Assembly (NCBI RefSeq): GCF_048627035.1
Contig: NZ_CP184478.1
Direction: 5' to 3' (one strand)
From: Pseudomonas sp. ABY48
Lineage (GTDB): Bacteria; Pseudomonadota; Gammaproteobacteria; Pseudomonadales; Pseudomonadaceae
Length of the DNA stretch: 40,000 bases
Numbering within the stretch: position 1 is the stretch's first letter; the number at the start of each line of letters is the position of its first letter. Shown here one piece after another: positions 12,172-32,081 of the stretch. The position numbers and the translations under genes are program-made. The notes beneath the pieces were generated by a model. That model did no database searches. It saw nothing but the letters and a program-made list of their open reading frames with translations, and was not told the origin of the DNA.

Positions 12172-12874
12172 GAGGGCTAACGATCTTTCGTTGAGAATCG
12201 CGAAGTACAGTCGTCTGAAAAATTCCGTACTTGAAGCGAAACCGTTTGAGACGCGTGCAACTCAATTCACTAACATATCAGAGAAGCTTGTTCTCACCCG
12301 TGACAGACTTGAGCGACTGTCGGAAGCTGGTATTGATGTAGGCTTTATACCTAAGGATGGTGAGGCGCTCGTAAGCAAGGCGGTGATATTGCGTGAGGCG
12401 TTGCGAACAAATCCCAAGGTCTTAAACGATCCGCCATTTAACCTCCGGTTTGATTTTACCGATCGCTTGCTAGGCATCACCAATGCGGCCGATGCTGAAA
12501 TGCTTGCTGCTTGGAGGTCTTTCATTCACGACAACAGTGATTCTACATCAACTGAGATCCTGGATGCGTTGTATGCAGTTCCGCAGTACCGCCCCATAGT
12601 TTCAAAAATTCGCGCTTGCCAGACCCAACTTGAGACGCTGGCTTCCAGCGTCCCTAACGAACTGAAGATTGCGACGGATCAACTTCGAGCCATTGTCCAA
12701 ACGCATCGTTTGGCTTGGGCGGAAATGACCACTGGGGGCATTCCGGATCCGGTAGTCAGCTTCCTACGTGATTGTGCCGCAGATGGAGCGATGTTGGCCG
12801 GGCTCACTGAGGAGGTTTGGGGATGGCTTGAAAACCGTAATTTACTTAATTCTTTCCGAATAAAGATCAAATAG
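12158..12874 (+). CDS. dpdI: Hypothetical protein in the DpdI position
   Basis: The start is placed at ATG 12158 (MVLLERAND), 8 nt after an AAGGAG and 14 nt inside the dpdH 3' end. The upstream ATG 12122 has no SD. The protein is 238 aa with no recognisable motif; the assignment is by position. Confidence 0.55.
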   Translation: MVLLERANDLSLRIAKYSRLKNSVLEAKPFETRATQFTNISEKLVLTRDRLERLSEAGIDVGFIPKDGEALVSKAVILREALRTNPKVLNDPPFNLRFDFTDRLLGITNAADAEMLAAWRSFIHDNSDSTSTEILDALYAVPQYRPIVSKIRACQTQLETLASSVPNELKIATDQLRAIVQTHRLAWAEMTTGGIPDPVVSFLRDCAADGAMLAGLTEEVWGWLENRNLLNSFRIKIK

Positions 12875-12884
12875 GGGTGGCTCA

Positions 12885-15800
12885 GTGCTAATTTCAGAAA
12901 AGGCGCTCCACCTTCTGGATTCCATAGAAATTATAGAGATGCGATCTCTTGAGTGGGGGTTTACCGATGGCTCACTAAGTGAGGATGAGGCGTTAGCCCT
13001 TGCCAACGTTTCCGCGGACGGTGGAAATGGTGACGAACTGCTTGAGGCGTTGATCGAAGGCCGCCTTATTTACGAGTTCAGAACCAGCAGCGCCGAAATC
13101 CGATACCGCTCTCGTTTCGCGGAGATGGTGCGACTGCTTGCGGCATCAAGGCAATTATTTCCCAATAAGCCTTGGCAAGGTGCTCCCCACCTTGTAGCCG
13201 ATTTTCGAGTTGATCGCCGTCGTCGTAGGTTTCCAAAGCGGGATCTGGATCCGGCATACGTATTGGGTGCCAACTCGATGACTCTCGGCAAAACAGACTT
13301 GCGTAAAGATCTATGGCGGGCTCTGACTAACCGTCCAAATATGAAACTTGCCGCCTTCCAACAGCGTGCTGCTGTACGCCTCATTGATGGCATAGAAGAC
13401 AGTGGGACTATAGTCACGGCTGGGACAGGCAGCGGGAAAACTATTGCTTTTTATCTACCGGCACTTATACGCGTTGGCGAAGCTATCGCTAAAGATAACT
13501 GGGTCAAGGCAATTTCGATTTATCCAAGGGTCGAGTTGCTAAAAGACCAGTTTGCAGAGGTCTATCGTCTAGCGAGAACTATGGACACAGCGCTGGCCGC
13601 TCATGGACGGCGGCCGCTATTGATAGGCACGCTTTTCAGAGCAACACCTCGAAATGCCAAACGCGAAGATCTCATCGCCCATGGCTGGAACCGTAAAGGC
13701 GGAGATTTTGTTTGCCCCTGGCTTCGCTGTCCTGCCTGTGATGGCGAACTCATTTGGCGCGAAACAGACCTCCGTGCGCAGCGTGAGGTTCTTCAGTGCT
13801 CACAACACAATTGTGCGTGTTACGTGCCGGATAGCCATATTGTCTTGACCCGTTCGCGACTTCAAAAAGAACCCCCTGACGTGCTCTTCACGACCACGGA
13901 AATCCTTAATCAGAGACTCTCCGATCAATGGACTCGAAGGCTCTTTGGCGTCGATATGCCAATGGGGAAGAAGCCACTCTTCGCACTCCTTGATGAAGTA
14001 CATACATACGAAGGTGCAACGGGCGCGCAGGCCGCGCTTACTTTGCGCCGGTGGCGTCACCTTTTAAGTGGGCCGATTTGTTGGGCGGGGCTTTCGGCAA
14101 CATTAGGAGAGGCCGCCAGTTTTTTTGCGGATCTCACTGGGGCGAACCCGGACAAGGTTGTAGAGATTACCCCGGCGGGTGACGAAATTGAGGAGCAGGG
14201 TGCTGAATATCAGATAATTCTGCGCGGCGATCCTGCGTCACGTTCGTCTCTGCTTTCGACTACGATCCAAACCTCAATGCTCCTGCCACGTTTGCTTGAT
14301 CCGCCTGGGTTGCCCGTATCGAAGGGGTCATTTGGGTGCCGCGCGTTTCTCTTTACCGACGACCTAGACGTAACAAATCGTCTATATGACGACCTCCGCG
14401 ACGCCGAGGCGTACACCATATATGGCAAACCTGATCAGCAACGCGATCCGCTGGCGGACCTACGTAGTGCAGGACAGGATGCGCAAATCCGTGACATCGA
14501 GGGGCAGCGTTGGCGCGTCTGTGAGGAAATTGGTCATCCGCTGAATCGACGTCTTATCGTGGGGCGGACAACATCTCAGGATGCGGGGGTCAATCAGGCC
14601 TCGAACATCATAGTGGCTACCGCTGCGCTTGAGGTCGGATTCAATGACCCGCAGGTTGGTGCAGTAATACAGCACAAAGCCCCAAGGGGGATGGCCTCTT
14701 TCCTCCAGCGCAAGGGGCGAGCAGGACGCAACCGTGAGATGCGTCCTGTTACGGTGACAGTTCTTTCAGATTATGGCCGCGACCGAATAGCCTATCAGTC
14801 CTATGAGCATCTCTTTGATCCCAGCCTTACAGCTCAACATTTGCCGGTTCAAAATCCCTATATTTTGCGCATTCAAGCGGTCTACGCGCTGATTGATTGG
14901 CTAGCGAAGCGCACCACTACAAACGAAAAGGTGTGGTTCTGGGATTTGCTGAGTCGACCAGTGCTTGGCGCATCCAGTTCTGCTGGAAAAATCCTCAGCG
15001 CAGTGAAAACCCAACTCAGCAAAATAATTCAGGGAGATCCGTCGAGTCTGGCAGATCTCCGCGCGTACCTCATTGCTTCCCTAGGTATTGATGAGGAAAC
15101 TGTAGACTCGTTGCTTTGGGAAGCGCCCCGGTCGCTACTGCTTGAAGTTGTTCCCACTCTAGTGCGCCGAGTATTTCGCCAATGGCAACTCGCGTTTCCG
15201 ACCAATTACGGCGATCGCGATATACAAGTTGATTTTCACCCGCTGCCAGATTTCATCCCGCGAAGTTTGTTCAGTGATCTCAGCCTACCAGAAGTTCAAA
15301 TCATTGTTCCGCCCGCTGATGTCAATCATGCTGAACGCATTGAGACGATGCCAATCGTTCAAGCGCTCAACCAACTCGTTCCAGGTCGCGTGAGTCGCCG
15401 CTTTGCTTTCGAACGCGGTGCCTTAGCGCATTGGGTTCCCGTTGATATCGCCCACCCTGAGCAGGAGCGACGAATCAGTGATTATGCTGAAGAACACGAA
15501 TTTGTTGGGACTTTCCGGGGGAGTTACAACGATGACGGCAACGCGGAGTCCTTTCTGGTTTTCCGGCCTTGGGTTGTTCGACTTGAAAAAGTAGCACGCA
15601 AGGACGCCTTGCCAAGTAGCAATGGACGACTTACTTGGCATACAGATATTGAACCCAATGGTGAGGCACTCACCGTTGGCATTCCGTCTCGTACCCAGTG
15701 GCGTACCTATATTAAGACGGCTTGCTTTTATCTGCATCGTTATCGAGCCAGCGTCAGCGTTCGGCGGTTTGCACCGACGGCACACGCCAATGTTCGGACT

Positions 15801-17447
15801 TTGAAGGATGATTTTCCTGTCACAATTCATTTCCGAAGTGATGGAGGTCTTCCAGCCGCACTAGGGTTCGAGTTGGAGGTTGATGGTTTCTACCTTGATT
15901 TCGATTTGCCGACCGCTAGCGAACTGGCGAGGGTTGAACTCCCGCAACATCTTGCTGCAAGCAGTACGCTGGCTTTTTTACGCGACACATTTTTGACTGA
16001 CGCCGATTTGCCGACTGATCTCAACAGCTTTCAACGCGATTGGCTTTTTCAAGTCCTGCAATCCGCTCTTTTTGCTGACGCGGCGGATACCGATCGTACG
16101 ATTGAGGAGTCCGCATCTGATCTGCTGAGTGAAGATCGTATGGAGGTCGCACTTTGTGAGGTAATGGACGATCTCTTTGGAGGAGTGCCACTCAATCCTG
16201 ACGGCGATTACACAGTCGATGATGTAGATGACATCTACGAGGTGACTAGTTGCGAAGGGGGCGAGGAGGTTGGATCTTCATCACCCCCAACGGCTACTAG
16301 GCTGCGGCAGACGCTTGCGCTTCATCTTTCCCGAGCGATCGTCCGGGATCGATTGCGCGTATTGGCCGGAGAGTTTACGAATCCTGATCCAGAGCGCCAC
16401 AGTCGCTGGCTTCGACGTACCATCGTTGAGACCTTGGGCGAGGCTCTTCTTCAAGCCTGCGCAGTGGCGGCGCCGAAACATGCTGTCGTTGATACCCTTC
16501 TCGTAGACGTACGGGATGACTGCACCAGCAATGTTGCGCGGATATGGATAAGCGAAGCGACACTCGGCGGAGCAGGGGTCCTACAGGCGTTCGCCGAACG
16601 CTTCACAGCTGAACCACGCGTTTTTTTCAGCGCCTTGGAGGCGGCGCTCACCCCAACCGATATCGAATTAGTGGATGGTGGTCTACGCCAAATTCTTGAT
16701 CTTTCCCAATCCGATCCGGACATCGGTGAGCAACTCGCTCAATTACGGAGTACCCATTCCCATGGGGAACGGTCGGCGCTTTGGCAATCATTTTCACATG
16801 CTCTTTCGAGTCGTGGGGCTGTTGATCTGAGTCACGCGCTGGCTGTATCGTTCAACTCCCGTTTGCTTAGATCCGGTGCTGGGCCTGCTCTGGACCGCTT
16901 GTTAGTAGATCTTCAAAAATTCTGGGATGATGTAGAGAAACGTTTTCGAGTGACTGTTGGATTGCGTGAGTTTGCTTATGTTTGTAGCAAAAAGCGGAGT
17001 ATCTCCCTCCGTGTACGTAGCTTCCTCGTTCAAACTTTGCCATTAGCCGTAGCTAATAAGGTGACAATCCTCGACGCCGTGATGAGTTTGTTGTGGCCAC
17101 GAGAAGTTGAACTACGTCAGAAGTTGCTCCGCTCTTATAATCCCTACCGGCAAGCGCGAACCACTGATCCGACGTTGATTCGCTATCTGCTACTTACGCG
17201 TACTGTGGTTACGGTGGAACTATCGGATGATGCGTGGCGAGGAAAACTTAACGCAGCATTAGAAACTGATGGTTCGTGTCGTTTGTCTGTAGTAGCTACA
17301 TCGGCAAGCATCATGCGCGAGACACTAGTTAAACTTGTTGCCACCCCTATAGATATTGGTTATCTACAGTTTTATCCAGTTGTTGAAAGATTCGAACGCG
17401 CTGAAGGTAAAATCATGGTGACCGTTTCACTAAGGGAGCAACTCTGA
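12885..17447 (+). CDS. dpdJ: Very large DEAD/DEAH-box (DEVH) SF2 helicase, DpdJ
   Basis: 1520 aa with a GTG start. Motifs: TAGTGSGKTIAFYLPAL (I), LLDEVHTYEG (II), LSATLG (III), ATAALEVGFNDPQVGAVIQHKAP...FLQRKGRAGRN (V-VI). A Cys-rich insert, CPWLRCPAC...CSQHNCAC, lies between motifs I and II. Confidence 0.8.
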   Translation: MLISEKALHLLDSIEIIEMRSLEWGFTDGSLSEDEALALANVSADGGNGDELLEALIEGRLIYEFRTSSAEIRYRSRFAEMVRLLAASRQLFPNKPWQGAPHLVADFRVDRRRRRFPKRDLDPAYVLGANSMTLGKTDLRKDLWRALTNRPNMKLAAFQQRAAVRLIDGIEDSGTIVTAGTGSGKTIAFYLPALIRVGEAIAKDNWVKAISIYPRVELLKDQFAEVYRLARTMDTALAAHGRRPLLIGTLFRATPRNAKREDLIAHGWNRKGGDFVCPWLRCPACDGELIWRETDLRAQREVLQCSQHNCACYVPDSHIVLTRSRLQKEPPDVLFTTTEILNQRLSDQWTRRLFGVDMPMGKKPLFALLDEVHTYEGATGAQAALTLRRWRHLLSGPICWAGLSATLGEAASFFADLTGANPDKVVEITPAGDEIEEQGAEYQIILRGDPASRSSLLSTTIQTSMLLPRLLDPPGLPVSKGSFGCRAFLFTDDLDVTNRLYDDLRDAEAYTIYGKPDQQRDPLADLRSAGQDAQIRDIEGQRWRVCEEIGHPLNRRLIVGRTTSQDAGVNQASNIIVATAALEVGFNDPQVGAVIQHKAPRGMASFLQRKGRAGRNREMRPVTVTVLSDYGRDRIAYQSYEHLFDPSLTAQHLPVQNPYILRIQAVYALIDWLAKRTTTNEKVWFWDLLSRPVLGASSSAGKILSAVKTQLSKIIQGDPSSLADLRAYLIASLGIDEETVDSLLWEAPRSLLLEVVPTLVRRVFRQWQLAFPTNYGDRDIQVDFHPLPDFIPRSLFSDLSLPEVQIIVPPADVNHAERIETMPIVQALNQLVPGRVSRRFAFERGALAHWVPVDIAHPEQERRISDYAEEHEFVGTFRGSYNDDGNAESFLVFRPWVVRLEKVARKDALPSSNGRLTWHTDIEPNGEALTVGIPSRTQWRTYIKTACFYLHRYRASVSVRRFAPTAHANVRTLKDDFPVTIHFRSDGGLPAALGFELEVDGFYLDFDLPTASELARVELPQHLAASSTLAFLRDTFLTDADLPTDLNSFQRDWLFQVLQSALFADAADTDRTIEESASDLLSEDRMEVALCEVMDDLFGGVPLNPDGDYTVDDVDDIYEVTSCEGGEEVGSSSPPTATRLRQTLALHLSRAIVRDRLRVLAGEFTNPDPERHSRWLRRTIVETLGEALLQACAVAAPKHAVVDTLLVDVRDDCTSNVARIWISEATLGGAGVLQAFAERFTAEPRVFFSALEAALTPTDIELVDGGLRQILDLSQSDPDIGEQLAQLRSTHSHGERSALWQSFSHALSSRGAVDLSHALAVSFNSRLLRSGAGPALDRLLVDLQKFWDDVEKRFRVTVGLREFAYVCSKKRSISLRVRSFLVQTLPLAVANKVTILDAVMSLLWPREVELRQKLLRSYNPYRQARTTDPTLIRYLLLTRTVVTVELSDDAWRGKLNAALETDGSCRLSVVATSASIMRETLVKLVATPIDIGYLQFYPVVERFERAEGKIMVTVSLREQL

Positions 17448-17974
17448 TGGTTTTTCCGTCTCGAGACCTTCATGGTCCTGGCCAAGCACGTGCTGTCCGC
17501 GACCTATTCCAAAGTCTATTTTCGGCTGAGCTAATACATCCAAGTCAGACGCTATGGTTCTTCTTTGCATGGATCTCAGACGTAGAGATCATTGATAACT
17601 CGGCTCGTCAATTCTCCGCCCTGGAGCCAGATTGGCCGGCAGCACAGATCAGATTGTCGCAGGTACTGAGGGCGTTACTGAGTCGTGGAGTACAGGTACG
17701 GCTAATAATCCGTGAAGATGGTCATAATGATTACTTTATAGCGCGCCTAAAGGAGTTAAAGTTGCGTTACAGAGATAGTTTGCAATGGGTTATTGAAAAA
17801 AGTTTCCATGCGAAAGGTTTGCTTGGATCCGACTATTTTCTGAGTGGATCGATGAATCTAACTCTAAACGGCATTTCCGTAAACGGTGAGCATCTTGTCT
17901 TGCGAACGGATCCAGCCGCTGTCGCTGAACAATCCATTCAACTTGAATCGCAGTGGGGGGGGCGGTTGGTATGA
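17447..17974 (+). CDS. dpdK: Small phospholipase-D-family (single HKD-like motif) nuclease, DpdK
   Basis: 175 aa. A TGATG junction joins it to dpdJ, with an AGGGAG upstream. It carries an HKD-like motif, SFHAKGLLGSDYFLSGSMNLT. Confidence 0.75.
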   Translation: MVFPSRDLHGPGQARAVRDLFQSLFSAELIHPSQTLWFFFAWISDVEIIDNSARQFSALEPDWPAAQIRLSQVLRALLSRGVQVRLIIREDGHNDYFIARLKELKLRYRDSLQWVIEKSFHAKGLLGSDYFLSGSMNLTLNGISVNGEHLVLRTDPAAVAEQSIQLESQWGGRLV

Positions 17975-20121
17975 TCGGCTTCCATATCGAGGATTCTGCA
18001 AGGTTACATGATGCTATAGTCTCGGCTTCTGGATATGGGAATCTAGTTGATGAGGTTCAAAGTCTGTGTTATCTGGTGGCTCAGTCATTAACGGATCTAG
18101 ATTTTCCTGGAGCTCTTGTTCCAACTTTAACTGTGGATGGCAGTCTGCAAGTCTATGCCGTAACTCGGACAATCACAGAATGGCGAAGGTTAAATCCAAT
18201 CCTCATTGCTTTCAGTGGTCCGACGATCACTTCCTACACTGGTGTGCCAGGAGCGCTTCCGATTGGAGGGGTGATTGAGGATGTTATACGTTCAATCGCC
18301 CCCTCAAATATCGGTATTCTTCGCTTGCCCGCAGATAGTAAAAAACGAGTAGCCGCTCTGCGTGCACTGCAGCGAGCCCGCGAGACTCTTGCGCGCGCAC
18401 CTAGTGCGCAACGCAAGGCTCCGCTACCGACTAGTTGGCTGCTCGCTAGCTTCCAAGACCATTTGAACGTGGGTCGACGTGCTGCTGCTTGGGACACTCT
18501 CAATCGCCTTAGGGATGAACTACGGGTCGATGCGCTTAACCTCAAGTTCCTTGAGGTGCAATTGCTCGCAGCGTTTGAGGATTGGAGCGCGATTCTCAAT
18601 ATGGCGGGGTTTGCGAGTCTCTGTATTGCAAGACGTCCACCTGCTGTTACGACTTTGCTTTTGGAGGCGCTTTATCGTGTCTATATTCAGGAGCACTTTC
18701 TCAGCGGTGACGTCGAAGAAACGCGTAGGTGTTATGCGGAACTGTGCCGAATACACGCTAAATCGATGCTAGTGGTGCCGTACCCCGCCATGTTGACACC
18801 CGGAGGATGGCGAATTTATGCGTTGGAGGCATTGTTATCTTCCGAAAATCATGAGTTGGTCAACGTTGTAATCGAGCAGTCCTTAGTGCTCGGTTGGATC
18901 TCCGAATACCTACCTGGCTCTTCTACAGCAAAAGCCACCGAGGTGTCGCGTGTTTTACAGACGCAACTCAACCACGCCCGCAAAGCACTCACAGAGGTCG
19001 ACTGTGTCAACAGTCTCGATGCTGTTGCAACTGCAATCGCGAGCATTAATCGATTGAGTAGCGCCGAGTTGGCTCAATTGAGTTCTGCTGAACCGTTTCG
19101 AACATTGTTACGCACTGTTTCGGATGTCGGCGGGCTAGGTGGACTGCCTAGTAGTTGGCTGGAGTGGCTAAGAAAGGTTTCGGACCCCGATTTCACTAAT
19201 GCGCTCGAAATTGCACGTCAGGGGAAAGACGAGTGGGTTCTTGATGAAAGTATCGCCGACCCGGTTGCAGTACAGCGTTTTGTTTCGGCTCTGGAGGCAG
19301 TACAGCACGATCAGATAGCAGCTGAGCGAACCGCGAACGCTCTTCCATTCATCGTCGCCTGGCTTCAGCGTGACGCAGTTTTCCCTCGTAGCGAGATGGG
19401 GCCCGTCTACTCCATCCTTCTTACATTATTCGCGATGGGGGCGAGTCGTGGGCGTGGTATCTACGAGTCTAGTCATATTCTCATTCATGGGTTACTAGCA
19501 ATCGGCGTCACAGAGAGCGTTTATCGAGGGTTAATCGCTGATACCGAGGAATTAGCGGGTTCGGGGTTCGGCGTCGAAATGGTCTATTGGTTACTCGAAG
19601 TTATTGAGGACTTTATACGATTCGGTGCCCCAGATGCTAATGCACGGGAAATTTTCCTTCACTGCGTCTTGTCGAAGATTGCTCCAATTTACTCGCGTCT
19701 AAGCAGCCTCCAATGCGCAGCGATCGTACGTCTGGCCGAACAACTAGGATGGCGCCTCGATGATATTGGGGTAAGTAAAGGTAGCGTTGCGCCAGATGAC
19801 TTTTCATCAAAAATGGATGGTCTGCGTATTGGCATCTACACGCTGAACGAGTCATCTAGCCGTCAAGCTAAAGCGGCGTTAGAAGTTGTCTCTCCCAATG
19901 TAATAGTTGACTGCAACGCTGATCATGGTGGTACGGATAAATTACGTTCTCTTGCAAAAAATGCAGATCTTTTTGTGATGACTTCACTCTCCGCAAAGCA
20001 TGCTGCTACAGACTGTATTCGTGAGCATCGAGTTAATCGTCCGCTTCTTTATGCTCAAGGGGCGGGGGTTTCAAGCATACTTCGTGTGATTGAGGATTAC
20101 TTAAAATTGGGTAGCGCTTGA
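17971..20121 (+). CDS. 716-aa helical-repeat protein ending the operon; possible DpdD
   Basis: The start is placed at ATG 17971 (MIGFHIED), which forms an ATGA overlap with the dpdK stop. The N-terminal two-thirds are largely Leu/Ala-rich. The C-terminal ~100 aa (LRIGIYTLNE...ADLFVMTSLSAKHAATDCIREH...) resembles a DUF2325-type domain from memory. DpdD is the only canonical Dpd component not otherwise accounted for. Confidence 0.4.
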   Translation: MIGFHIEDSARLHDAIVSASGYGNLVDEVQSLCYLVAQSLTDLDFPGALVPTLTVDGSLQVYAVTRTITEWRRLNPILIAFSGPTITSYTGVPGALPIGGVIEDVIRSIAPSNIGILRLPADSKKRVAALRALQRARETLARAPSAQRKAPLPTSWLLASFQDHLNVGRRAAAWDTLNRLRDELRVDALNLKFLEVQLLAAFEDWSAILNMAGFASLCIARRPPAVTTLLLEALYRVYIQEHFLSGDVEETRRCYAELCRIHAKSMLVVPYPAMLTPGGWRIYALEALLSSENHELVNVVIEQSLVLGWISEYLPGSSTAKATEVSRVLQTQLNHARKALTEVDCVNSLDAVATAIASINRLSSAELAQLSSAEPFRTLLRTVSDVGGLGGLPSSWLEWLRKVSDPDFTNALEIARQGKDEWVLDESIADPVAVQRFVSALEAVQHDQIAAERTANALPFIVAWLQRDAVFPRSEMGPVYSILLTLFAMGASRGRGIYESSHILIHGLLAIGVTESVYRGLIADTEELAGSGFGVEMVYWLLEVIEDFIRFGAPDANAREIFLHCVLSKIAPIYSRLSSLQCAAIVRLAEQLGWRLDDIGVSKGSVAPDDFSSKMDGLRIGIYTLNESSSRQAKAALEVVSPNVIVDCNADHGGTDKLRSLAKNADLFVMTSLSAKHAATDCIREHRVNRPLLYAQGAGVSSILRVIEDYLKLGSA

Positions 20122-20260
20122 GCGCGTTGCATATGCTTTTGAGCAATCCCTTTCTCGAAGGATAGGTAGGCTTTAAATGTATTTAATTATTTGGCGAACC
20201 CCCGATAGGTGTCCAAGACGTTTTTTGGGGTTTGGCGATGAAGTATCATTGATGGTTTCG

Positions 20261-20896
20261 TTACGGGATCATTAGTATTTTATGTTGCTGTAGTCCTAAT
20301 TTCCATTTGGGGTGAGATTTACAGTACTCTATCGTCAATTCTATGTTTTTTTGAATGTTTGGACCATCCATGGGTTGTAAATAGTGGTGCTCAAAAAGGA
20401 GTTGCTCAAATTTTTCTGGAGGTGCTTCAGTCTGTGGGTATACAAGCTTAAGTTCATTGCCGTGAGTGATTTTTAGTTGAGCGCCTGATTTTGGACTGAC
20501 ACAAATCCAGTCGATTCCAAAAGGCGGTTCGATCGTACCATTGGTCTCTACGGCAATGGAAAAGTTTAGGTTATGCAGGGCGAGTACCAACGCGTTGTCG
20601 ACTTGAAGTAAAGGTTCTCCGCCGGTCAATACCACATACTTATGATTCTGGTGGGATATTGGCCAAAACGAATCAATAGCATGAGCGAGAGCTTCAGCAT
20701 TTTTAAATTTATCCCCACCATCCCCATCTGTTCCGACGAAGTCCGTGTCACAGAATGTACAGATCGCGCTAGCCCTGTCCTGTTCTCGTCCCGACCAGAG
20801 GTTACATCCTGAAAATCGGCAGAATACCGCAGGTCGACCCGCTTGGTTGCCTTCCCCTTGAAGGGTGTAAAACATTTCTTTGATGCTGTAAGTCAT
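20261..20896 (-). CDS. queE: 7-carboxy-7-deazaguanine synthase QueE (radical SAM)
   Basis: 211 aa. It has TLQGEGNQAGRPAVFCRFSGCNLWSG and a cluster motif C-x14-C-x2-C (CNLWSGREQDRASAICTFC), as in E. coli-type QueE. Confidence 0.9.
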   Translation of the reverse strand: MTYSIKEMFYTLQGEGNQAGRPAVFCRFSGCNLWSGREQDRASAICTFCDTDFVGTDGDGGDKFKNAEALAHAIDSFWPISHQNHKYVVLTGGEPLLQVDNALVLALHNLNFSIAVETNGTIEPPFGIDWICVSPKSGAQLKITHGNELKLVYPQTEAPPEKFEQLLFEHHYLQPMDGPNIQKNIELTIEYCKSHPKWKLGLQQHKILMIP

Positions 20897-20959
20897 TTTG
20901 TTTACTCGTCTGATTCAAATAGGTGGCGAGTGCACTGATCCGCCACCGCTGAACCATCA

Positions 20960-21661
20960 TCAATCTCGTTCTTGAATGTACTGCTCATATCCAGTTTTGC
21001 GCAGTTCACAAGCTGGGCACGTTCCACACCCGTAGCCCCATTCATGTTTCTGCTGTCGGGTTCCGAGGTAGCAGGTGTGGGACTCTTCTTGGATCAGGCT
21101 GACAAAGTCTCGATTACCTAGATCTTCCGCCAAACGCCAGGTCTGCGCTTTGTTAAGCCACATCAAGGGCGTTTCAATGATCACCGGAGCGTCCATCCCG
21201 AGGCTCAAGGCCACCTGGGTGGCTTTGAGGGTGTTGTCCCGGCAGTCTGGGTAGCCTGAGTAGTCTGTTTCGCACATTCCCCCGACCAGCACTGTGAGGT
21301 CCCGTCGGTAGGCAATAGTGGCTGCGAACGTCAAGAACAGCAGATTTCTCCCGGGTACAAACGTATTGGGAAGTCCATTCTTTTCAAACTCTATAGTTTT
21401 CTCAGCGGTCATCGCCGTATCGCTGATCTGGCCGAGTAACTTGAGGTCAAGCACGTGGTCCTCACCGAGTCGCTTGGTCCAGTTCGGAAATCTGTTACGT
21501 ACCTCCTGCAAGATATTCAGCCGACATTCGAGCTCGATTCGATGCCTCTGGCCATAATCAAAGCCAATGGTCTCGACGTGCTCGTAACGTTCCAGCGCCC
21601 AGGCAAGGCAGGTGGTTGAATCTTGTCCGCCTGAAAAAAGAACTAAGGCTTTGGTGTGCAT
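20960..21661 (-). CDS. queC: 7-cyano-7-deazaguanine (preQ0) synthase QueC
   Basis: 233 aa. It has the PP-loop [11 protein letters not shown] and a C-terminal zinc-Cys cluster, CYLG...[22 protein letters not shown] lies upstream of the ATG. Confidence 0.92.
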
Positions 21662-21688
21662 ATTGCTCTCCTCGGGACTGGGTCTGAT

Positions 21689-22744
21689 TTAGCGCCGTTT
21701 CAGTTCTTGCTTGAGTTTTTCGGTCAGATACTTAGTGAGCAATCCGATATCAGTGGGCGTGTTCTGGATACCATTCCAGGGGCGGCGGTCGGTTTCAGAA
21801 ATGTGCCAATCACCACTTGTCCATGCTGTATGAGGTTTCAAAAGTTTTAGACCTTTGATAAAGCCTTCCTTGCTGGTTGTGCCTTGATCGGAGTAAAGCA
21901 ACTCCATAACGAAGCTCAAAGACACCAGGCCCGCCCCGTGTTTCAAACGTGAATTCCTGGGTGCTAGTCCTTCCCATTCCGATTTGAAAACTACACGCAC
22001 TGCATGGAAGAAGTTATTGATAAGTTCGATGCTGCGCCCCTCAAAGTCATCAAATTTCATGAAGCTACGAATTGCGCCATCATTCGCAGAGTTCATCACG
22101 AACTTCTGCATCGCCATGTCGCTTAGTACTCCTCTAGGATTCGTATGTTGTTTGATCTCGCCAAATAGAGAGGAGTTAGGCAGAAAATTCAACAAATCAA
22201 TAATACGAGCAGCAAATTTACGACTTGTGAACCGTTCTGGCAGGCCGTCAACAGTCGGTAAAAGTTCATAGATTAGCGATTTTGGCAGCGGCCTCGTATT
22301 GTTGACGAGCACAAACTGCTGTCGCAGTTCGTTGTAGTCTTTACAAATCAATGCAGATACAAATACCTGGAATCCAGGCTTTTCCATCGTCGCAAGGGCG
22401 CTGAGTCGTTGTTGGCCATCGACCACAAAGCCTGGTTTTGATTCGGTAGCATCAATAATGATTTCTACAATACCCTCACCAAGGTCTTTGATCGTGACTT
22501 CATCGAGAAAAGCCAGGATAATTGCGTTGGGGAGCAATGCATCGTCGCGCTGAAGATAGTCGCGAATATCTCTGATGTGCGACGCGACTTGATGGCGTTG
22601 AAAGCCTTTGAGGTGGCCTTCTTCATCGCGGCCGACTCTCTCAATTTCAGAGAAATCTAAAATTTCATTTGGAGTGGCCGCAAACGAAAATACATCATGC
22701 CCGGAGGCCTGTTGGGCGCGCACACCCTTAAATCGATAGATCAT
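21689..22744 (-). CDS. DGQHR/DndB/ParB-like family protein, paralogue of DpdB (351 aa)
   Basis: Motifs: KGFQR..V..HIRDIRDYL, PNAIILAF, FVVDGQQRLSAL, QFVLVNNTRPLPKSLIYELLP, SRLKHGAG, AWTSGDW...WNGIQNTPTDI. It is colinear over its full length with the 24036..25157 and 26272..27327 products. Its ATGA start overlaps the dpdA stop. Confidence 0.8.
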   Translation of the reverse strand: MIYRFKGVRAQQASGHDVFSFAATPNEILDFSEIERVGRDEEGHLKGFQRHQVASHIRDIRDYLQRDDALLPNAIILAFLDEVTIKDLGEGIVEIIIDATESKPGFVVDGQQRLSALATMEKPGFQVFVSALICKDYNELRQQFVLVNNTRPLPKSLIYELLPTVDGLPERFTSRKFAARIIDLLNFLPNSSLFGEIKQHTNPRGVLSDMAMQKFVMNSANDGAIRSFMKFDDFEGRSIELINNFFHAVRVVFKSEWEGLAPRNSRLKHGAGLVSLSFVMELLYSDQGTTSKEGFIKGLKLLKPHTAWTSGDWHISETDRRPWNGIQNTPTDIGLLTKYLTEKLKQELKRR

Positions 22745-24039
22745 TGTTTCGAAAGTTCCAGAGTTTTCTGAAGGTGGCGGTGGTACACGCCTAAGTTATG
22801 AAATCCACGTCTTTTGTTTCGATTGCTGGCTCGAAAGATAATAGTTTCGATACCCGCTGACTGACAAATCGAACATTGGCATTTTTGCCACGGTTTATCT
22901 CTCAGCGTGGGTGAGATTAGTCGGACATGCTTGGCGATTTCTTTTTCCATTTCTATTGGTGACAATATCGTGCCGGATAGAGTCAGTCGGAGATAGTCTA
23001 CTAGTACGGCTAAGGTAGAATCAAAGTCGAGAAGATTTTTATCGTAGTCGCGGATCGCTAGCAGCGCCGCTTTTTCTTTGATTTGTAACTCTTCCGCGCT
23101 CAGAGTGCCTTTTTTAATTCCTTGCATCAGGCGTGGATTTTCAATTGCCTGAGGAATACGGATGGCAGTGTAATAATCCAGTTTGGTTGTATTGTTGTCC
23201 ATGTAATAATTACACTTCGCATCTTTAAATGCGCGTATAAGGGGGGAGGTTGAGTCAAAACTGGTAATGCCATATCCAGTGAATTCATGGATGTTCTCAG
23301 CTTTGGCGAAACCCAGCAGATGAATATTTGTCTCGGGCTTAAGGATGGCTCGAAGTTCTTTTAGAACCTCATGAATTTGATCGACTTTCAAAGGTACTAG
23401 ACCTCCGATCGCCAAGTAGCGATAACCCATGTCTTCGAGTTGTTTTGCAGCGTTCGCCATGCTTTGGGGAGACCAACCCTGTACCGCTCCAAGAGGTTCG
23501 AAAGGCCATTCCGCCTCCTTCACTAAACGCAGAAACTCTTGCGCATTTTTGAGCGTAATTTCGTACCGAAACAGCACATCTTCCGACTGGCTCAGCGCTG
23601 GAGGATTGCTGGAGTCGCAGTTGAATATGATGTGGTCCGGCGAGCAACCGTGGGTGAATCCCGCATCTGAGTAGAACTCTACTACTTCGCCGGGGCTATA
23701 CGCAGGGGTAGGGTGCTCTACATAGGCGAAAGCCCCGCAGTCACCTAGGACCATCGTATCTTTGAACTGAATGCCATCGAGTCGTAGAAATTTGCGCGCG
23801 CCTTCTCTGAGGAAGCGCTGCTGCTCGGAAGTCGAGTACCGAACCTTTGAATTAGCGACGCCATTTGCAGGTCGCACTGCGCTCATCGAGACCAAGAGCC
23901 CATCATAAGGGACGGGGGTCATCATTTCGTGCGCATACTGGTCATCCCAGTATCTCTTCCGGCCCGGCGCATTTCGATCGTTGATGAAATCGTAGTCCGG
24001 GTCTACGTAGTCTTGGGTGTCGGCGTATAAAAATTTCAT
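22741..24039 (-). CDS. dpdA: tRNA-guanine-transglycosylase-like DNA transglycosylase DpdA
   Basis: 432 aa. It has a TGT-like substrate/Asp motif VLGDCGAFAY and a TGT-type zinc site, CQCSIC...FHNL (CxCxxC...H). It is flanked by DGQHR genes and by queC/queE. Confidence 0.8.
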   Translation of the reverse strand: MKFLYADTQDYVDPDYDFINDRNAPGRKRYWDDQYAHEMMTPVPYDGLLVSMSAVRPANGVANSKVRYSTSEQQRFLREGARKFLRLDGIQFKDTMVLGDCGAFAYVEHPTPAYSPGEVVEFYSDAGFTHGCSPDHIIFNCDSSNPPALSQSEDVLFRYEITLKNAQEFLRLVKEAEWPFEPLGAVQGWSPQSMANAAKQLEDMGYRYLAIGGLVPLKVDQIHEVLKELRAILKPETNIHLLGFAKAENIHEFTGYGITSFDSTSPLIRAFKDAKCNYYMDNNTTKLDYYTAIRIPQAIENPRLMQGIKKGTLSAEELQIKEKAALLAIRDYDKNLLDFDSTLAVLVDYLRLTLSGTILSPIEMEKEIAKHVRLISPTLRDKPWQKCQCSICQSAGIETIIFRASNRNKRRGFHNLGVYHRHLQKTLELSKQ

Positions 24040-25157
24040 TGGTGAGCGCTGGTCATATAGAGGCGGATCAAGGTTTCTTGCAGCGCCTTGATATCTTGAG
24101 GGGTGCTTTGGATTTCATTCCACTGGACATTAATCATCGGCCATTGACCTGTTGTCCATGCGCAGTAAGGGGCTACTCTGGCCAGTTCTTGTAGCACGGC
24201 TTCGTAGGTTTCGCGCTGACCACCGATTTTGGCGTAGATCCGATCCATAAGCACTCCCATGGCGATGATCCCCGCTGAGTGCATGAGTCGACTGCTCTTG
24301 GATTCAAGTGCCCACGCCTCTGGAAACGTATCACGCACTGCCCGCCAGAAGGTCGTCAGCAGGTTGTACATGGACTCAACGTTCGCCGCTCCGTCGGTGC
24401 TGGAGGTGTAGGGGGCCAACGCCCCCAACGGATTACTGATGCTATTGCGGATCATCGTTATTACAGCGGTGTCAGTGATCACTGCTTTGCTATTTTGCTC
24501 GGACGACCGCTTTATGAGTTTGTGGAAAGGGGAGTTGGGATCGCGGCTAAGAAGCCCGCACAACTCAGCTGGTGCTTTGCGAGCACTCAGTTCGCGGGGC
24601 AAAAGGATGCTGCCTGTCTCCGGCAGTAGTTCGTTGATCAGTCGAGTGGGCAAGGGTTTGGCCTTGTTGACCAAAATAAATTGCTCGCGCTGGGTGGTCA
24701 GGCTGTCGGATACAAAACCGATCACTGGCACAGGAAGATCCGAATTGGCCGCTTTCGCCAACGCCAATGAGCGCTGTTGCCCGTCCACGATCCAGGCAGA
24801 CCTCATTCCTTCCTCCCTGATAGGTATCGTCAGCGTACCCGCTTGCGAAAGCCCCGCGTCGCCTGTCGGCTTGCTTCCGCGTGCTGCAACAAAACGCAGG
24901 TCAGGAGACAGCGCTAAGATAATTGCATTGGGAAAAAGTACATTTCCCTGATTGAGGTACTCAGTGATCCCTTTGACATGACTCTTAATCTCGGGGCGCT
25001 GAAAACCCTTGAGGGGACTGCTGTCTTCCCGCGACAGGCGGCTGATGTCGGCAATTCGGACCAGGTCAGATCCCCTGATGAATAATGCATACACATCAAG
25101 GTTGTCGCCTTGCGTGGTGCGTAGTGCACGCACCACAATCGCATCTTCGCTCGTCAT
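24036..25157 (-). CDS. dpdB: DGQHR domain (ParB-like) protein DpdB
   Basis: The start is placed at ATG 25157 (MTSEDAIVV), which forms an ATGA overlap with the upstream gene. The ORF-track start 25226 would overlap that gene by 73 nt. Motifs: KGFQRPEIKSHV, PNAIILAL, IVDGQQRSLAL, QFILVNKAKPLP. Its stop forms an ATGA overlap with the dpdA start. Confidence 0.75.
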   Translation of the reverse strand: MTSEDAIVVRALRTTQGDNLDVYALFIRGSDLVRIADISRLSREDSSPLKGFQRPEIKSHVKGITEYLNQGNVLFPNAIILALSPDLRFVAARGSKPTGDAGLSQAGTLTIPIREEGMRSAWIVDGQQRSLALAKAANSDLPVPVIGFVSDSLTTQREQFILVNKAKPLPTRLINELLPETGSILLPRELSARKAPAELCGLLSRDPNSPFHKLIKRSSEQNSKAVITDTAVITMIRNSISNPLGALAPYTSSTDGAANVESMYNLLTTFWRAVRDTFPEAWALESKSSRLMHSAGIIAMGVLMDRIYAKIGGQRETYEAVLQELARVAPYCAWTTGQWPMINVQWNEIQSTPQDIKALQETLIRLYMTSAHQ

Positions 25158-26125
25158 GCTTTGCTCTCTATGCTGTCTTGACCTTTGATGTCCTGCCAGA
25201 TCCTCCGAAAGCGCGATTGCTCGCACGACACCAGGGCGTCGTCCCTTAAGTAGCGTAACAATCGGGTGGAACTGCCTTGGTAGTCAGCCCACACACACTC
25301 AAGCATGTAGGCAATTTCACTGTCCGATGCGCGCCGCCGGATGGTCGTTTTTGCTAGGGATAAAAGATCCATCGCCGCGCTGACGCTCTTTCGAGCGATC
25401 TCAACAGGAGCACTCGACAGTTCAAGAATCTCAATGAAATGACGCAGGGCTCTCTGAGGGAAATCGTTGCGAGTGCCTGGTAGTGTTGAGGTTTCAAGGC
25501 GTTCGTCATAGGGCATCGCTATGCGTCGTAAATGGCTGGGAAGCATCTCGATGCCTGGGCGCGAAGTGAATATTCTGATCTTGTCGATCTGCGTGCCCCT
25601 GATTTTTCCAAGGTCTTCGCCTATCAACTGGACATAGTTTGAAGAGAGGGCAATGAGCACCAAGTCGATGTCGGGTTGGCTGACGAGGTCCGCTAGGGCG
25701 CTTCCCTTTGATTGGGTGACATTCACGGCTTCCCACCAATCTGATGCGCGCGCACCCAATTTTTCGAGACGTGGGATGATAGAATTCGGATCCTGAGCCA
25801 CCGTCAGGTTGTACGGCGGACATCTCCGATCGCCTTCAATCAACCCTAAGCCGGTCGACGCAAACATTAGCTTCGCGTCCAACTTCGTTGCTACGCGCCT
25901 CGCGTCAGAAACACTTCTGCCCACGTAAAGTGAAGATGCCATCAGAGTGGTGGGACGTTCGTCTATTTGCCCCTTCCACGCCTTTGCCATGGCTGCAATC
26001 GATGAATAACACTCGTCGTTCAGCACCACCGGCGGCAGGCCGTCGAGACGTTTTCGATTGGTGCAGTTGGTGATTATCACGGTTCTCATGGGAAAACTGT
26101 AGGCCTGTTTTGACGAGTGTTGCAT
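25154..26125 (-). CDS. dpdC: Protein in the DpdC position (proposed preQ0-DNA to 7-amido-7-deazaguanine-DNA converting enzyme)
   Basis: 323-aa ORF and first gene of the minus-strand operon, translationally coupled to dpdB. I cannot verify any catalytic motif by eye. The alternative start ATG 26089 (MRTVIITNCTNRKR) is equally possible, and neither start has a clear SD. Confidence 0.5.
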   Translation of the reverse strand: MQHSSKQAYSFPMRTVIITNCTNRKRLDGLPPVVLNDECYSSIAAMAKAWKGQIDERPTTLMASSLYVGRSVSDARRVATKLDAKLMFASTGLGLIEGDRRCPPYNLTVAQDPNSIIPRLEKLGARASDWWEAVNVTQSKGSALADLVSQPDIDLVLIALSSNYVQLIGEDLGKIRGTQIDKIRIFTSRPGIEMLPSHLRRIAMPYDERLETSTLPGTRNDFPQRALRHFIEILELSSAPVEIARKSVSAAMDLLSLAKTTIRRRASDSEIAYMLECVWADYQGSSTRLLRYLRDDALVSCEQSRFRRIWQDIKGQDSIESKA

Positions 26126-26201
26126 TTATCTGAGGCTGATAATTTACCATTTAATAACTGTGTGGGCCAATGCGCGTAGGCTGGTTTTTATGCGATAGGG
26201 T

Positions 26202-26210
26202 TGGTATAAG
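26202..26210 (+). promoter_or_regulatory. Candidate extended -10 (tggtataag) in the dpdC / DGQHR-paralogue divergent intergenic region
   Basis: It matches TGnTATAAT at 8 of 9 positions, about 60 nt upstream of the proposed TTG start at 26272. This would place ATG 26170 upstream of the promoter. Confidence 0.25.
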
Positions 26211-26271
26211 AGCCTCAATACTGCTGCTACCCCTCTTTCTTGGGGGGGCGTTCGATGAAGGAAGAGACTCA

Positions 26272-27327
26272 TTGCTTAAGTTCAGCGCAATCAAGGCGTT
26301 ACAGAGCCAAACCCACCAAGTGGTATCGTTTGCGGCTACCGTTGAGCAGATTTTGGCGATCGCTAGCATCGACCGAGTCAAGCGTGATGATCGTGGCGCC
26401 CTTCATGGCTTTCAGCGGCCACAGGTGTCCAAGCACATACGAGAGATCCGCGACTACCTCTCCCGTCCCGATGCGGTAATGCCCAATGCTGTGGTGTTAG
26501 CGTTTACCAGTGGAGTCCGGGTGGTGGAAGGAAATGGAGCCTATGCAGAAATTGAGGTGGATATTTCATCCGGCCCTCCTGGGTTCGTTGTGGATGGTCA
26601 GCAGCGCCTATCTGCGTTAGCTGGGCTCGAGGGGAGTTCGTTCCAGTTACTGGTGTCTGCTCTTGTGTGTGAAAATCAGGAAGAGCTTCGCCGGCAATTC
26701 ATTCTCGTCAACAACACCAGTCCATTACCGAAGTCGCTGGTATATGAACTGCTCCCTTCTGTCAGCGGCCTTCCATTCAGAATGACTTCCCGCGCCCGCG
26801 CAGCCCGCATCGTGGAAATGCTGAATTATGACGATCGATCTTCTTTGCAAGGACAGATTAAGCAGCATACCAACCCTTCAGGGGTCATCGGTGATACGTC
26901 GCTCCAGAAACTGGTAATGAATTCCTTATCTGACGGTTACTGTCGGGAGGTGATTGAGTTGTCGGGAGGTGAGGATCGGTGTTTCTTGGCCATCAGTGAG
27001 TTTTTCCAGGCGGTCCAGGAGGTGTTTGGAAATGCTTGGCATGGTCACACCCCTAAAAGTTCTCGTCTCGTCCATAGCGCGGGGATTATTTCCATGGGGT
27101 TCGTTATGGAGCAGTTGTGTGCTACAGGAGCGCCACTGGCCCCAGTATTCAAGTTAGGCCTTAGAAAGCTACAAGGATATACAGCTTGGACGCTCGATTC
27201 GGGAGAGTGGTCCTTTAAAACAGGCAATCGGCCATGGAATGGAGTTCAGAATTTACATGGTGATATTCATCTTTTGACTGATTATTTGACCCGGGTGGTT
27301 CGAAGTTCGGAACTCGTACCTAGCTAA
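26272..27327 (+). CDS. Second DGQHR/DndB/ParB-like paralogue (351 aa), divergent from dpdC
   Basis: A TTG start at 26272 is proposed (GAAGGAAGAG SD-like 5-10 nt upstream). It gives exactly 351 aa, the same length as the 21689..22744 product, and the two align from residue 2 (LKFSAIKALQ vs IYRFKGVRAQ). The ORF-track ATG 26170 would add 34 residues with no counterpart. Motifs: HGFQRPQVSKHIREIRDYL, FVVDGQQRLSAL, QFILVNNTSPLPKSLVYELLP. Confidence 0.75.
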   Translation: MLKFSAIKALQSQTHQVVSFAATVEQILAIASIDRVKRDDRGALHGFQRPQVSKHIREIRDYLSRPDAVMPNAVVLAFTSGVRVVEGNGAYAEIEVDISSGPPGFVVDGQQRLSALAGLEGSSFQLLVSALVCENQEELRRQFILVNNTSPLPKSLVYELLPSVSGLPFRMTSRARAARIVEMLNYDDRSSLQGQIKQHTNPSGVIGDTSLQKLVMNSLSDGYCREVIELSGGEDRCFLAISEFFQAVQEVFGNAWHGHTPKSSRLVHSAGIISMGFVMEQLCATGAPLAPVFKLGLRKLQGYTAWTLDSGEWSFKTGNRPWNGVQNLHGDIHLLTDYLTRVVRSSELVPS

Positions 27328-27359
27328 CGGGTGCACATTACTAATATTTAGGAGGCATT

Positions 27360-28986: not shown

Positions 28987-29046
28987 GGATTGGGGACTCC
29001 TGTCAGGCACGTTGCGCATGCCAACTGTCATGTGGCATTGAAAAGG

Positions 29047-29982: not shown

Positions 29983-29999
29983 GGGCTTTTCCTTTTCGA

Positions 30000-31847: not shown

Positions 31848-31997
31848 GACTAACGCTCCTGTTAAATGCCAGGCACAGCGTGCTTGCGTGTTGCGCAAAC
31901 CGATGTACTCGAGACGTCGCTGCGACCCACGGCATCATTTGCGGTACCTGTGCAATTCGCAGCTCGCGCATTTCAGCACCGACTTTGTGTCGGCGTC

Positions 31998-32017: not shown

Positions 32018-32081
32018 AGCGAGGCTTATGCGGATCGACGTGCATCTGTGCATTTGTGCAACGGTCGGTGGTGGGCTTTGT

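What the first reader, a model, noticed from the sequence alone, without database searches (positions are those of the whole stretch)
21689..22744. Extra DGQHR (DGQQR) paralogue embedded between dpdA and queC
The minimal modification machinery known for Dpd is DpdA+DpdB(+DpdC). Here a second full-length DpdB-like gene is translationally coupled (ATGA) to the 3' end of dpdA. It shares every conserved block with DpdB: KGFQR, PNAIILA, VDGQQR, QF.LVN..PLP, SRL.H.AG and AWT.G.W...WN.IQ.TP.DI. It is nonetheless clearly divergent. All three paralogues carry DGQQR instead of the family-name DGQHR. Its role is open. It could be a second ATPase partner for DpdA, a sequence-specificity subunit, or a regulator.
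Basis: partly seen in the sequence, partly recalled or inferred. Interest (0 to 1): 0.7.

Follow-up and report, generated by a model that had tools for sequence, protein, structure and literature searches.

The report
Standard-slot DpdB gene, not the extra one
The gene is a real, conserved DpdB-family ATPase gene coupled to dpdA in a Pseudomonas DNA-modification (Dpd) defence island. It sits where every Dpd island keeps its DpdB, so the gene the studied Salmonella system lacks is the upstream copy, and the layout is common and already annotated.

Summary
Window 21689-22744 (- strand) encodes a 351-aa DpdB-family protein. Its ATG overlaps the dpdA stop (ATGA), and it passes NCBIfam's DpdB model (375 bits, cut-off 300).

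- DGQQR is the normal DpdB motif.
- All 80 most closely related species-level dpdA loci have dpdC-dpdB-dpdA-dpdB-queC.
- Salmonella Montevideo-type islands, including annotated E. coli, have one DpdB, and it lies downstream of dpdA, in the target's slot.
- In 52 metagenome loci, 30 had both copies, 22 had only the downstream copy, and none had only the upstream copy.

So the target fills the universal slot, and the upstream gene (24036-25157) is the optional addition.

The target's clade is well supported (bootstrap 0.95-1.0). Its divergence matches that of its DpdA (distance ratio about 1.2). All paralogues keep the NTPase motifs and have dN/dS of 0.02-0.06.

The third copy (26170-27327) occurs only in Pseudomonas-type islands and groups with alphaproteobacterial downstream copies.

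Extra dpdB copies have been counted in the literature (801 in 2335 islands) but never studied.

The target is most likely the ATPase partner of DpdA. What the upstream and third copies do remains open.

The parts
21689..22744 (-). Target: downstream-slot (D) dpdB, 351 aa, a DGQQR ParB-like NTPase
   Evidence: NF041060 gives 375 bits against a cut-off of 300. PADLOC DpdB gives 411 bits. The start overlaps the dpdA stop as ATGA. dN/dS is 0.02-0.05. The AF2 model has pLDDT 82.5, and its best PDB matches are ParB, PadC and SspE.
22741..24039 (-). dpdA, DNA-guanine transglycosylase
   Evidence: NF041059 gives 556 bits. It matches PDB 7ui4, the S. Montevideo-type DpdA, at E = 1e-95.
24036..25157 (-). 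Upstream-slot (U) dpdB paralogue; this is the copy absent from single-DpdB systems
   Evidence: NF041060 gives 465 bits. Its ATG at 25157 overlaps the dpdC stop as ATGA. Its stop overlaps the dpdA start by 4 nt. The U clan has NJ bootstrap 0.69-0.99.
25154..26125 (-). dpdC (the true start may be the ATG at 26089)
   Evidence: PADLOC DpdC PDLC02815 gives 294 bits, aligned from residue 13. There was no Pfam or NCBIfam hit.
26170..27327 (+). Third dpdB-family gene (B3), divergent from dpdC; probable true start is the TTG at 26275
   Evidence: NF041060 gives 353 bits. It is 52% identical to the target. It groups with alphaproteobacterial downstream-slot genes at bootstrap 1.0. It was found only in the window, L002-L010 and P. 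aeruginosa L170. A Shine-Dalgarno-like GAAGGAAGAG lies before the TTG at 26275.
20960..21661 (-). queC (preQ0 synthesis), 27 nt downstream of the target
   Evidence: PF06508 gives 233 bits and TIGR00364 gives 205 bits.
20261..20896 (-). queE
   Evidence: TIGR04508 gives 342 bits.
2543..20121 (+). Restriction module: dpdE, F, G, H, I, J, K, then dpdD
   Evidence: NCBIfam scores: DpdE 950, DpdF 783, DpdG 157, DpdH 538, DpdI 34 (below its cut-off), DpdJ 1759, DpdK 208 and DpdD 509 bits.

Best explanation
The target is this lineage's version of the standard DpdB. It is a ParB/sulfiredoxin-fold ATPase (FQR and DGQQR motifs) encoded immediately after dpdA and made together with it. Its ATP hydrolysis most likely drives DpdA's exchange of guanine for preQ0 in DNA, as shown for the S. 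Montevideo DpdA/DpdB pair.

The copy that the studied model lacks is the upstream paralogue, between dpdC and dpdA. The four genes dpdC, upstream dpdB, dpdA and downstream dpdB are joined by three ATGA overlaps, so they are probably made in fixed proportion.

Two arrangements are possible for the two DpdB paralogues:
- They replace the homodimer of the model system with a heterodimer.
- They divide the work, the downstream copy serving DpdA and the upstream copy serving DpdC.

Shown here: family membership, gene slot, conservation, co-divergence with DpdA and motif retention. Inferred: the ATPase role, the partnership with DpdA and any heterodimer.
For: - **Family membership:** full-length DpdB equivalog and PADLOC hits.
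- **Motif retention:** Q49-R50, D109-G-Q-Q-R113, Q143, N148 and E160 are 100% conserved in all three clans.
- **Same slot and coupling as the characterised type:**
  - Brenneria, with DpdA 90% identical to the PDB 7ui4 sequence.
  - The Logan contig L083.
  - PGAP-annotated E. coli with dpdA followed by DpdB and a 4-nt overlap, found in 159 complete genomes.
  - Ferrimonas, Marinobacterium and Moritella.
- **Universality of the downstream copy:**
  - It is present in 80 of 80 genome loci.
  - It is present in 52 of 52 metagenome loci with both flanks covered. The upstream copy is present in 30 of those 52 and never occurs alone.
- **Co-divergence with DpdA:** the downstream-DpdB/DpdA distance ratio is 1.18-1.20 between window-type and other islands, against 0.92-1.09 within types.
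- **Natural fusions:** DpdA-DpdB fusions exist in that gene order (P0254, P0264, P0267, P0292, P0293). Their DpdB domains score best on the downstream-type profile.
- **Selection:** dN/dS is 0.02-0.05.
- **Fold:** the predicted fold matches ParB, PadC and SspE, the proteins reported as structural neighbours of DpdB (PMC10164549).
- **Published biochemistry:** DpdB is a homodimeric ATPase needed for DpdA activity (PMC10164549).
Against: - **Tree topology:** outgroup-rooted NJ trees put the characterised type with the upstream clan rather than with the target's clan in 31-89% of bootstraps. An all-downstream clan is recovered in only 8-30%.
- **HMM scores:** the upstream copy scores higher on the NCBIfam and PADLOC DpdB models (465 against 375 bits, and 456 against 411 bits).
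- **Target-clan differences:** the target's clan differs from both other clans at many otherwise conserved positions. It also has a 12-residue deletion before DGQQR.
- **No stable complex reported:** no stable DpdA-DpdB complex was seen for S. Montevideo (PMC10164549).
- **No experiments:** no experiment exists for any two-copy system.
Confidence: 0.6

Rival explanations
1. One reading: the upstream gene (24036-25157) is the true DpdA partner. The target is an accessory paralogue with another role, such as a second ATPase, a specificity factor or a modulator.
For: - The upstream copy scores higher on the DpdB models (465 against 375 bits; 456 against 411 bits).
- NJ trees tend to group the characterised type with the upstream clan (0.31-0.89).
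- The target's clan has many derived substitutions and a 12-residue deletion.
Against: - Systems with one DpdB keep it in the target's slot, never upstream.
- All natural DpdA-DpdB fusions are in the order DpdA then DpdB, with downstream-type domains.
- The target's divergence is about what its DpdA's divergence predicts.
- The characterised-type DpdB is marginally closer to the target (37.7%) than to the upstream copy (36.3%).
Confidence: 0.2
2. Obligate heterodimer: the upstream and downstream paralogues together form one ParB-like clamp. This replaces the DpdB homodimer, so both are needed for preQ0 insertion. It is compatible with the best explanation and is a sharper form of it.
For: - S. 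Montevideo DpdB is a homodimer (PMC10164549).
- Wherever the upstream copy occurs, the downstream copy also occurs (110 of 110 loci).
- Both copies flank dpdA with ATGA overlaps.
- Both keep every NTPase motif and are under equally strong selection.
- Both co-diverge with DpdA.
Against:
- Neither paralogue shows the degenerate active site often seen in paralogous heterodimers.
- The one DpdC-DpdB fusion and the link between the upstream copy and dpdC point instead to separate partners.
Confidence: 0.3
3. DndB-like regulator: the target binds the dpd promoter or DNA and tunes expression or the modification level, instead of acting in catalysis.
For: - It matches Pfam DndB PF14072 (50 bits).
- DndB is described as a regulator of the dnd operon (PMC5699537).
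Against: - The match to the DpdB equivalog is far stronger and full length.
- The gene is inside the operon and coupled to dpdA, not at a promoter.
- In the model system DpdB is catalytically required (PMC10164549).
- No dnd genes are in the window.
- If any copy is a regulator, the divergently transcribed third copy is the better candidate.
Confidence: 0.07

Closest known systems
DpdB of Salmonella enterica serovar Montevideo (Dpd 7-deazaguanine DNA modification system; PMC10164549)
   Same: - It belongs to the same family (NF041060 above cut-off).
- It has the same FQR and DGQQR NTPase motifs.
- The predicted fold has the same structural neighbours (ParB, PadC, pNOB8 ParB, Atu1540, SspE).
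- It occupies the same slot, immediately downstream of dpdA with a 4-nt overlap.
- It sits in the same kind of island (dpdA-K).
   Different: - It is only about 38% identical and belongs to a separate, well-supported clade.
- It has a 12-residue deletion before DGQQR and many clade-specific substitutions.
- It works alongside a second, upstream DpdB paralogue, and here a third, which the model system lacks.
- preQ0 genes (queC, queE) follow it in the same operon.
Upstream-slot DpdB paralogues of two-copy dpd islands (for example Comamonas testosteroni L018, the Agrobacterium vitis plasmid CP146243 and Myxococcus L085)
   Same: - They share the family, the motifs, the operon and the strength of selection.
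- PGAP gives both flanking genes the name DpdB.
   Different: - They form a different clan, 32-33% identical to the target.
- They have two clan-specific insertions.
- They always lie between dpdC and dpdA.
- They are never found without dpdC or without the downstream copy.
DndB (phosphorothioation regulator) and SspE (ParB-like NTPase with a nuclease domain)
   Same: - They share the ParB-like DGQHR/DGQQR NTPase superfamily (PF14072, 50 bits).
- SspE appears among the fold matches (6jiv).
   Different: - No dnd or ssp genes are nearby.
- The score on the dnd-associated DGQHR model is far below its cut-off (48 against 450 bits).
- The paper on DpdB reports that DpdB lacks SspE's EHxxP nuclease motif (PMC10164549); this was not checked residue by residue for the target.

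Membership tests
DpdB (NCBIfam NF041060 equivalog; PADLOC DpdB) | Full-length match above the curated cut-off | tested here: met
   The score is 375.3 bits against a cut-off of 300, with residues 4-340 on model positions 2-352. PADLOC PDLC02811 gives 410.6 bits.
DpdB (NCBIfam NF041060 equivalog; PADLOC DpdB) | ParB-type NTPase motifs: FQR and DGQQR (the motif named for S. Montevideo DpdB) | tested here: met
   GFQR is at 47-50 and DGQQR at 109-113. These residues are 100% conserved in all DpdB clans. The motif is named in PMC10164549.
DpdB (NCBIfam NF041060 equivalog; PADLOC DpdB) | Encoded next to dpdA within a dpd island | tested here: met
   The start overlaps the dpdA stop as ATGA. DpdA-K are all present. 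The same junction occurs in the characterised type.
DpdB (NCBIfam NF041060 equivalog; PADLOC DpdB) | [quoted passage not shown] | tested here: inconclusive
DpdB (NCBIfam NF041060 equivalog; PADLOC DpdB) | ATP hydrolysis that is required for, and enhanced by, DpdA acting on DNA | not testable with these tools
   This is a biochemical property, shown only for S. Montevideo DpdA/DpdB (PMC10164549).
DpdB (NCBIfam NF041060 equivalog; PADLOC DpdB) | Homodimer in solution | not testable with these tools
   Only monomer prediction was possible, so a heterodimer with the upstream paralogue cannot be excluded.
DndB (Pfam PF14072; dnd phosphorothioation regulator) | Match to the family model | tested here: met
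   PF14072 gives 50.1 bits against a cut-off of 29.1. This shows similarity at superfamily level only.
DndB (Pfam PF14072; dnd phosphorothioation regulator) | Association with the dnd or ssp sulfur-modification genes | tested here: not met
   The neighbours are dpd and que genes only. TIGR04172 gives 47.9 bits against a cut-off of 450.

The most novel reading that the evidence does not exclude
The widespread dpdC-dpdB-dpdA-dpdB module is a division of labour between two specialised ParB-like ATPases. The downstream copy (the target) loads or powers DpdA for preQ0 insertion. The upstream copy serves DpdC for conversion to dADG, or the two form an asymmetric heterodimeric DNA clamp. On this reading the Salmonella model with one homodimeric DpdB would be a reduced form of the system. 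In Pseudomonas a third, alpha-type copy at the island edge would add a further role, for instance regulation.
Probability: 0.3. Interest if true: 0.55.

Novelty: new member of a known kind. Interest (0 to 1): 0.33.

Why it matters
All mechanistic knowledge of Dpd modification comes from a one-DpdB system. This work shows three things:
- A large share of dpd islands carry two DpdB paralogues flanking dpdA. These include all 80 nearest species-level loci, 30 of 52 metagenome loci, and P. aeruginosa and Comamonas islands.
- The universal copy is the downstream one.
- The upstream copy never occurs without dpdC.

This tells experimenters which gene to call the equivalent of the studied DpdB. It also gives a simple, testable question about why a second ParB-like ATPase was added. 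For the finding as written the result is mostly deflationary: the gene is an ordinary DpdB in its usual place.

Tried and rejected
- **Branching order of the three DpdB clans:** NJ with Kimura or gamma distances and 100-200 bootstraps gave conflicting, weakly supported orders. Conserved-site characters point both ways. No maximum-likelihood program was available, so I left the order unresolved and relied on gene slot and co-divergence with DpdA.
- **Long-branch attraction for the target's clan:** the mean distance to the outgroup is the same for all clans (3.67-3.73), so this explanation has no support.
- **Promoter and terminator scan of 19900-27950:** counts were no higher than in shuffled sequence, so it was not used.
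- **Rfam and tRNA scans of the window:** nothing was found.
- **Sequence search of the target against PDB:** no hit at E <= 1.
- **Original papers:** Thiaville 2016 and Yuan 2018 are not held, and the GATOR-GC supplement is not held. I therefore could not see whether their figures draw two dpdB genes.
- **Pseudo-enzyme idea:** I considered that one paralogue might have lost its active site and rejected it, because all NTPase motif residues are invariant in each clan.

Full report
**What is in the window.** The window is a Pseudomonas chromosome segment; the closest protein hits are P. viridiflava and P. alliivorans at 97-98%. A complete Dpd island lies next to rpoS.

On the + strand are dpdE, F, G, H, I, J, K and then dpdD (2543-20121). 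The NCBIfam equivalogs are all above cut-off except DpdI.

On the - strand is one tightly packed operon:
- dpdC (25154-26125; PADLOC DpdC 294 bits)
- a DpdB-family gene (24036-25157)
- dpdA (22741-24039; NF041059 556 bits)
- the target (21689-22744)
- queC and queE

A third DpdB-family gene (26170-27327) is transcribed divergently from dpdC.

**Checking the observation.** The target ORF, its ATGA overlap with dpdA and all the listed sequence blocks are real.
- The target is 32% identical to the upstream paralogue and 52% identical to the third.
- All three pass the DpdB equivalog NF041060 (375, 465 and 353 bits; cut-off 300) and PADLOC DpdB.
- The two other junctions are also ATGA overlaps: dpdC/upstream dpdB at 25154-25157 and upstream dpdB/dpdA at 24036-24039. 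So dpdC, dpdB, dpdA and dpdB form one translationally coupled block.
- dN/dS against close relatives is 0.02-0.05 for the target. It is about the same for dpdA (0.04-0.05), the upstream copy (0.02-0.06) and the third copy (0.04-0.05). None of them is decaying.
- DGQQR is not a deviation. It is the motif described for S. Montevideo DpdB (PMC10164549), and it is invariant in every DpdB clan I aligned.

**Is the arrangement unusual?** No. A DpdA-anchored scan of one genome per GTDB species gave 439 loci, of which the best 80 were kept. Their DpdA is 98% down to 50% identical to the window's. They come from gamma-, beta- and alphaproteobacteria, plus MAGs labelled cyanobacterial, Chitinophaga and Phycisphaeraceae.
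- All 80 have dpdC, dpdB, dpdA, dpdB and then queC or queE.
- A crude start-codon heuristic gave a 4-nt overlap at the dpdA/downstream junction, and likewise at the upstream/dpdA junction, in 49 loci each.
- A PGAP-annotated Agrobacterium vitis plasmid shows both flanking genes named 'DGQHR domain-containing protein DpdB'.
- The GATOR-GC survey reports dpdB as the dpd gene with the most additional copies, 801 in 2335 unique islands, without further analysis (PMC12235509).
- The same paper lists Comamonas testosteroni among bacteria whose islands modify DNA with dPreQ0 and dADG. The C. testosteroni ATCC 11996 locus in my survey (L018) has the two-copy layout.

**Which copy is the 'extra' one?** I reconstructed the S. 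Montevideo-type DpdA from PDB 7ui4 and looked up the genomic context of its relatives.
- Brenneria (DpdA 90% identical), a Logan contig (92%), Ferrimonas, Marinobacterium and Moritella each have a single DpdB. It lies immediately downstream of dpdA, with a 4-nt overlap in the closest ones.
- 159 complete E. coli genomes carry this type. PGAP annotates a hypothetical gene (in the dpdC position), then dpdA, DpdB, dpdE and dpdF.
- Myxococcus has both an upstream and a downstream copy.
- A metagenome scan led by the Myxococcus DpdA gave 52 loci with both flanks covered. Of these, 30 had upstream-dpdA-downstream, 22 had dpdA-downstream only, and none had an upstream copy alone.

The downstream slot, which the target occupies, is therefore universal. 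The upstream slot is the optional one. Natural DpdA-DpdB fusion proteins exist in that gene order (five full-length representatives less than 50% identical to each other).

**Phylogeny.** NJ trees of 284-287 DpdB-family sequences were rooted with remote true-DGQHR proteins found in some islands. They give three clans:
- All upstream copies (bootstrap 0.69-0.99).
- The downstream copies of window-type islands plus the third copies (0.95-1.0).
- The downstream copies of single-copy and Myxococcus-type islands, including the characterised type (0.44-0.81).

The order of the three clans is not resolved. 'Upstream plus characterised type' gets 0.31-0.89, and 'all downstream together' gets 0.08-0.30. 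Conserved-site characters point both ways. Mean identities are close: upstream against characterised type 36.3%, target clan against characterised type 35.6%, upstream against target clan 33.2%. The Brenneria DpdB is 37.7% identical to the target and 36.3% to the upstream copy.

**Co-divergence with DpdA.** This test is more informative. Between window-type and other islands the DpdA distance is 1.07-1.10, the downstream-DpdB distance is 1.28-1.29 (ratio 1.18-1.20) and the upstream-DpdB distance is 0.97 (ratio 0.91). Within island types the ratios are 0.92-1.09. The target's clade is therefore about as far from the characterised DpdB as its DpdA is from the characterised DpdA. This is what is expected if the downstream gene has been inherited together with dpdA throughout, with only mild acceleration.

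**Function.**
- All NTPase motif residues (Q49, R50, D109-R113, Q143, N148, E160) are invariant in all three clans, so none is a dead paralogue.
- The AF2 model of the target (pLDDT 82.5) has a strand-rich N-terminal half and a helical C-terminal half.
- Its best PDB matches are ParB bound to CDP (6sdk), pNOB8 ParB, PadC, Atu1540 and SspE. These are the proteins reported as structural neighbours of S. Montevideo DpdB, but all E-values are weak (PMC10164549).
- In the model system DpdB is a homodimeric ATPase. Its hydrolysis is required for DpdA's transglycosylation and is enhanced by DpdA with DNA, and DpdC acts independently.

I therefore take the target to be the ATPase partner of DpdA.

**The upstream copy.** Three hints tie it to dpdC:
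- It always lies directly after dpdC.
- It is never found without dpdC (0 of 26 non-window-type loci, plus all 80 window-type loci), whereas five loci have a downstream copy but no dpdC.
- The single DpdC-DpdB fusion found (P0307) carries an upstream-clan domain, whereas every DpdA-DpdB fusion carries a downstream-type domain.

These hints are weak. There is only one fusion, the loci are phylogenetically non-independent, and 21 loci have dpdC without an upstream copy. A heterodimer of the two paralogues is an equally reasonable reading and could not be tested here.

**The third copy.** It was found only in the window, in L002-L010 and in a P. aeruginosa island, where it lies between the integrase and dpdC. 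It groups with alphaproteobacterial downstream copies at bootstrap 1.0, not with the window's own downstream gene. It is therefore an import or an old duplicate, not a recent tandem copy. Its likely start is the TTG at 26275, preceded by GAAGGAAGAG, which gives a 350-aa protein. Its role is unknown. Being divergently transcribed at the operon's promoter region, it is the best candidate if any copy acts as a DndB-like regulator.

**Verdict.** It needs three corrections:
- The target is in the standard DpdB slot.
- The arrangement is the norm for this lineage and is already annotated and counted.
- DGQQR is ordinary.

Novelty is low for the gene itself. A modest open question remains about why many Dpd systems carry a second ParB-like ATPase, and Pseudomonas a third.

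Noticed in passing
window 26170-27327 (+); L002-L010; L170:5695-6771: The third DpdB-family gene groups with alphaproteobacterial downstream-slot dpdB genes (NJ bootstrap 1.0), not with the window's own downstream copy. It occurs only in Pseudomonas-type islands. In P. aeruginosa CP115204 it sits between the island integrase and dpdC. Its probable true start is the TTG at 26275, after a GAAGGAAGAG Shine-Dalgarno-like sequence.
   Followed up: partly
P0254, P0264, P0267, P0292, P0293 (DpdA-DpdB); P0307 (DpdC-DpdB): Natural fusion proteins exist. Several DpdA-DpdB fusions carry downstream-type DpdB domains. One DpdC-DpdB fusion carries an upstream-clan domain. I could not check on DNA whether P0307 is a real ORF or a merged gene call.
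   Followed up: partly
L004:~8201-9470, L010:~4032-5270, L017:~14094, L034:~15721, L040:~15798, L063:~8110: Several window-type dpd islands carry a further, remote DGQHR protein with a true DGQHR motif. It is 24-26% identical to DpdB, scores far below the DpdB cut-off, and lies 3-5 kb from dpdA. The window has none. Its function is unknown; I used these proteins as the outgroup.
   Followed up: partly
window 20261-26125 compared with L006: Synonymous divergence is mosaic along the operon: dpdC dS 1.45, upstream dpdB 0.19, dpdA 0.25, target 0.88 and queE 1.78. This suggests recombination between island variants inside the modification module.
   Followed up: no
window residues 151-171 of the target (about 22232-22294): The only low-confidence stretch of the AF2 model (pLDDT < 50) coincides with the most conserved linker motif, PLPxxLxxELLPxxxxLP. 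It may become ordered only in a dimer or on DNA.
   Followed up: no
window 1369-2542: The gap between rpoS (361-1368) and dpdE holds a short IS66-orfA-like remnant ORF (1874-2059), judged from its sequence only. There is no tRNA gene and no Rfam family at gathering threshold anywhere in the window, so the insertion site of the island is not marked by a tRNA here.
   Followed up: partly
P0256, P0279, P0329: Some downstream-type DpdB proteins carry an extra N-terminal domain of about 140 aa. It matches the PADLOC candidate family PDC-M57A, and in one case it shows faint similarity to DpdC.
   Followed up: no
window 12122-12874 (+): The ORF in the DpdI position matches NCBIfam DpdI at only 33.6 bits (cut-off 150). 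It is a very divergent DpdI.
   Followed up: no
window 27360-35120: To the right of the island lie an unassigned 179-aa ORF (27360-27899, no family hit) and an alpha/beta hydrolase (27760-29031). Beyond these, ORFs look like siderophore/NRPS-type genes (an adenylation enzyme at 30000-31898 and an ABC exporter at 33411-35120). The last two were judged from the translations only.
   Followed up: no
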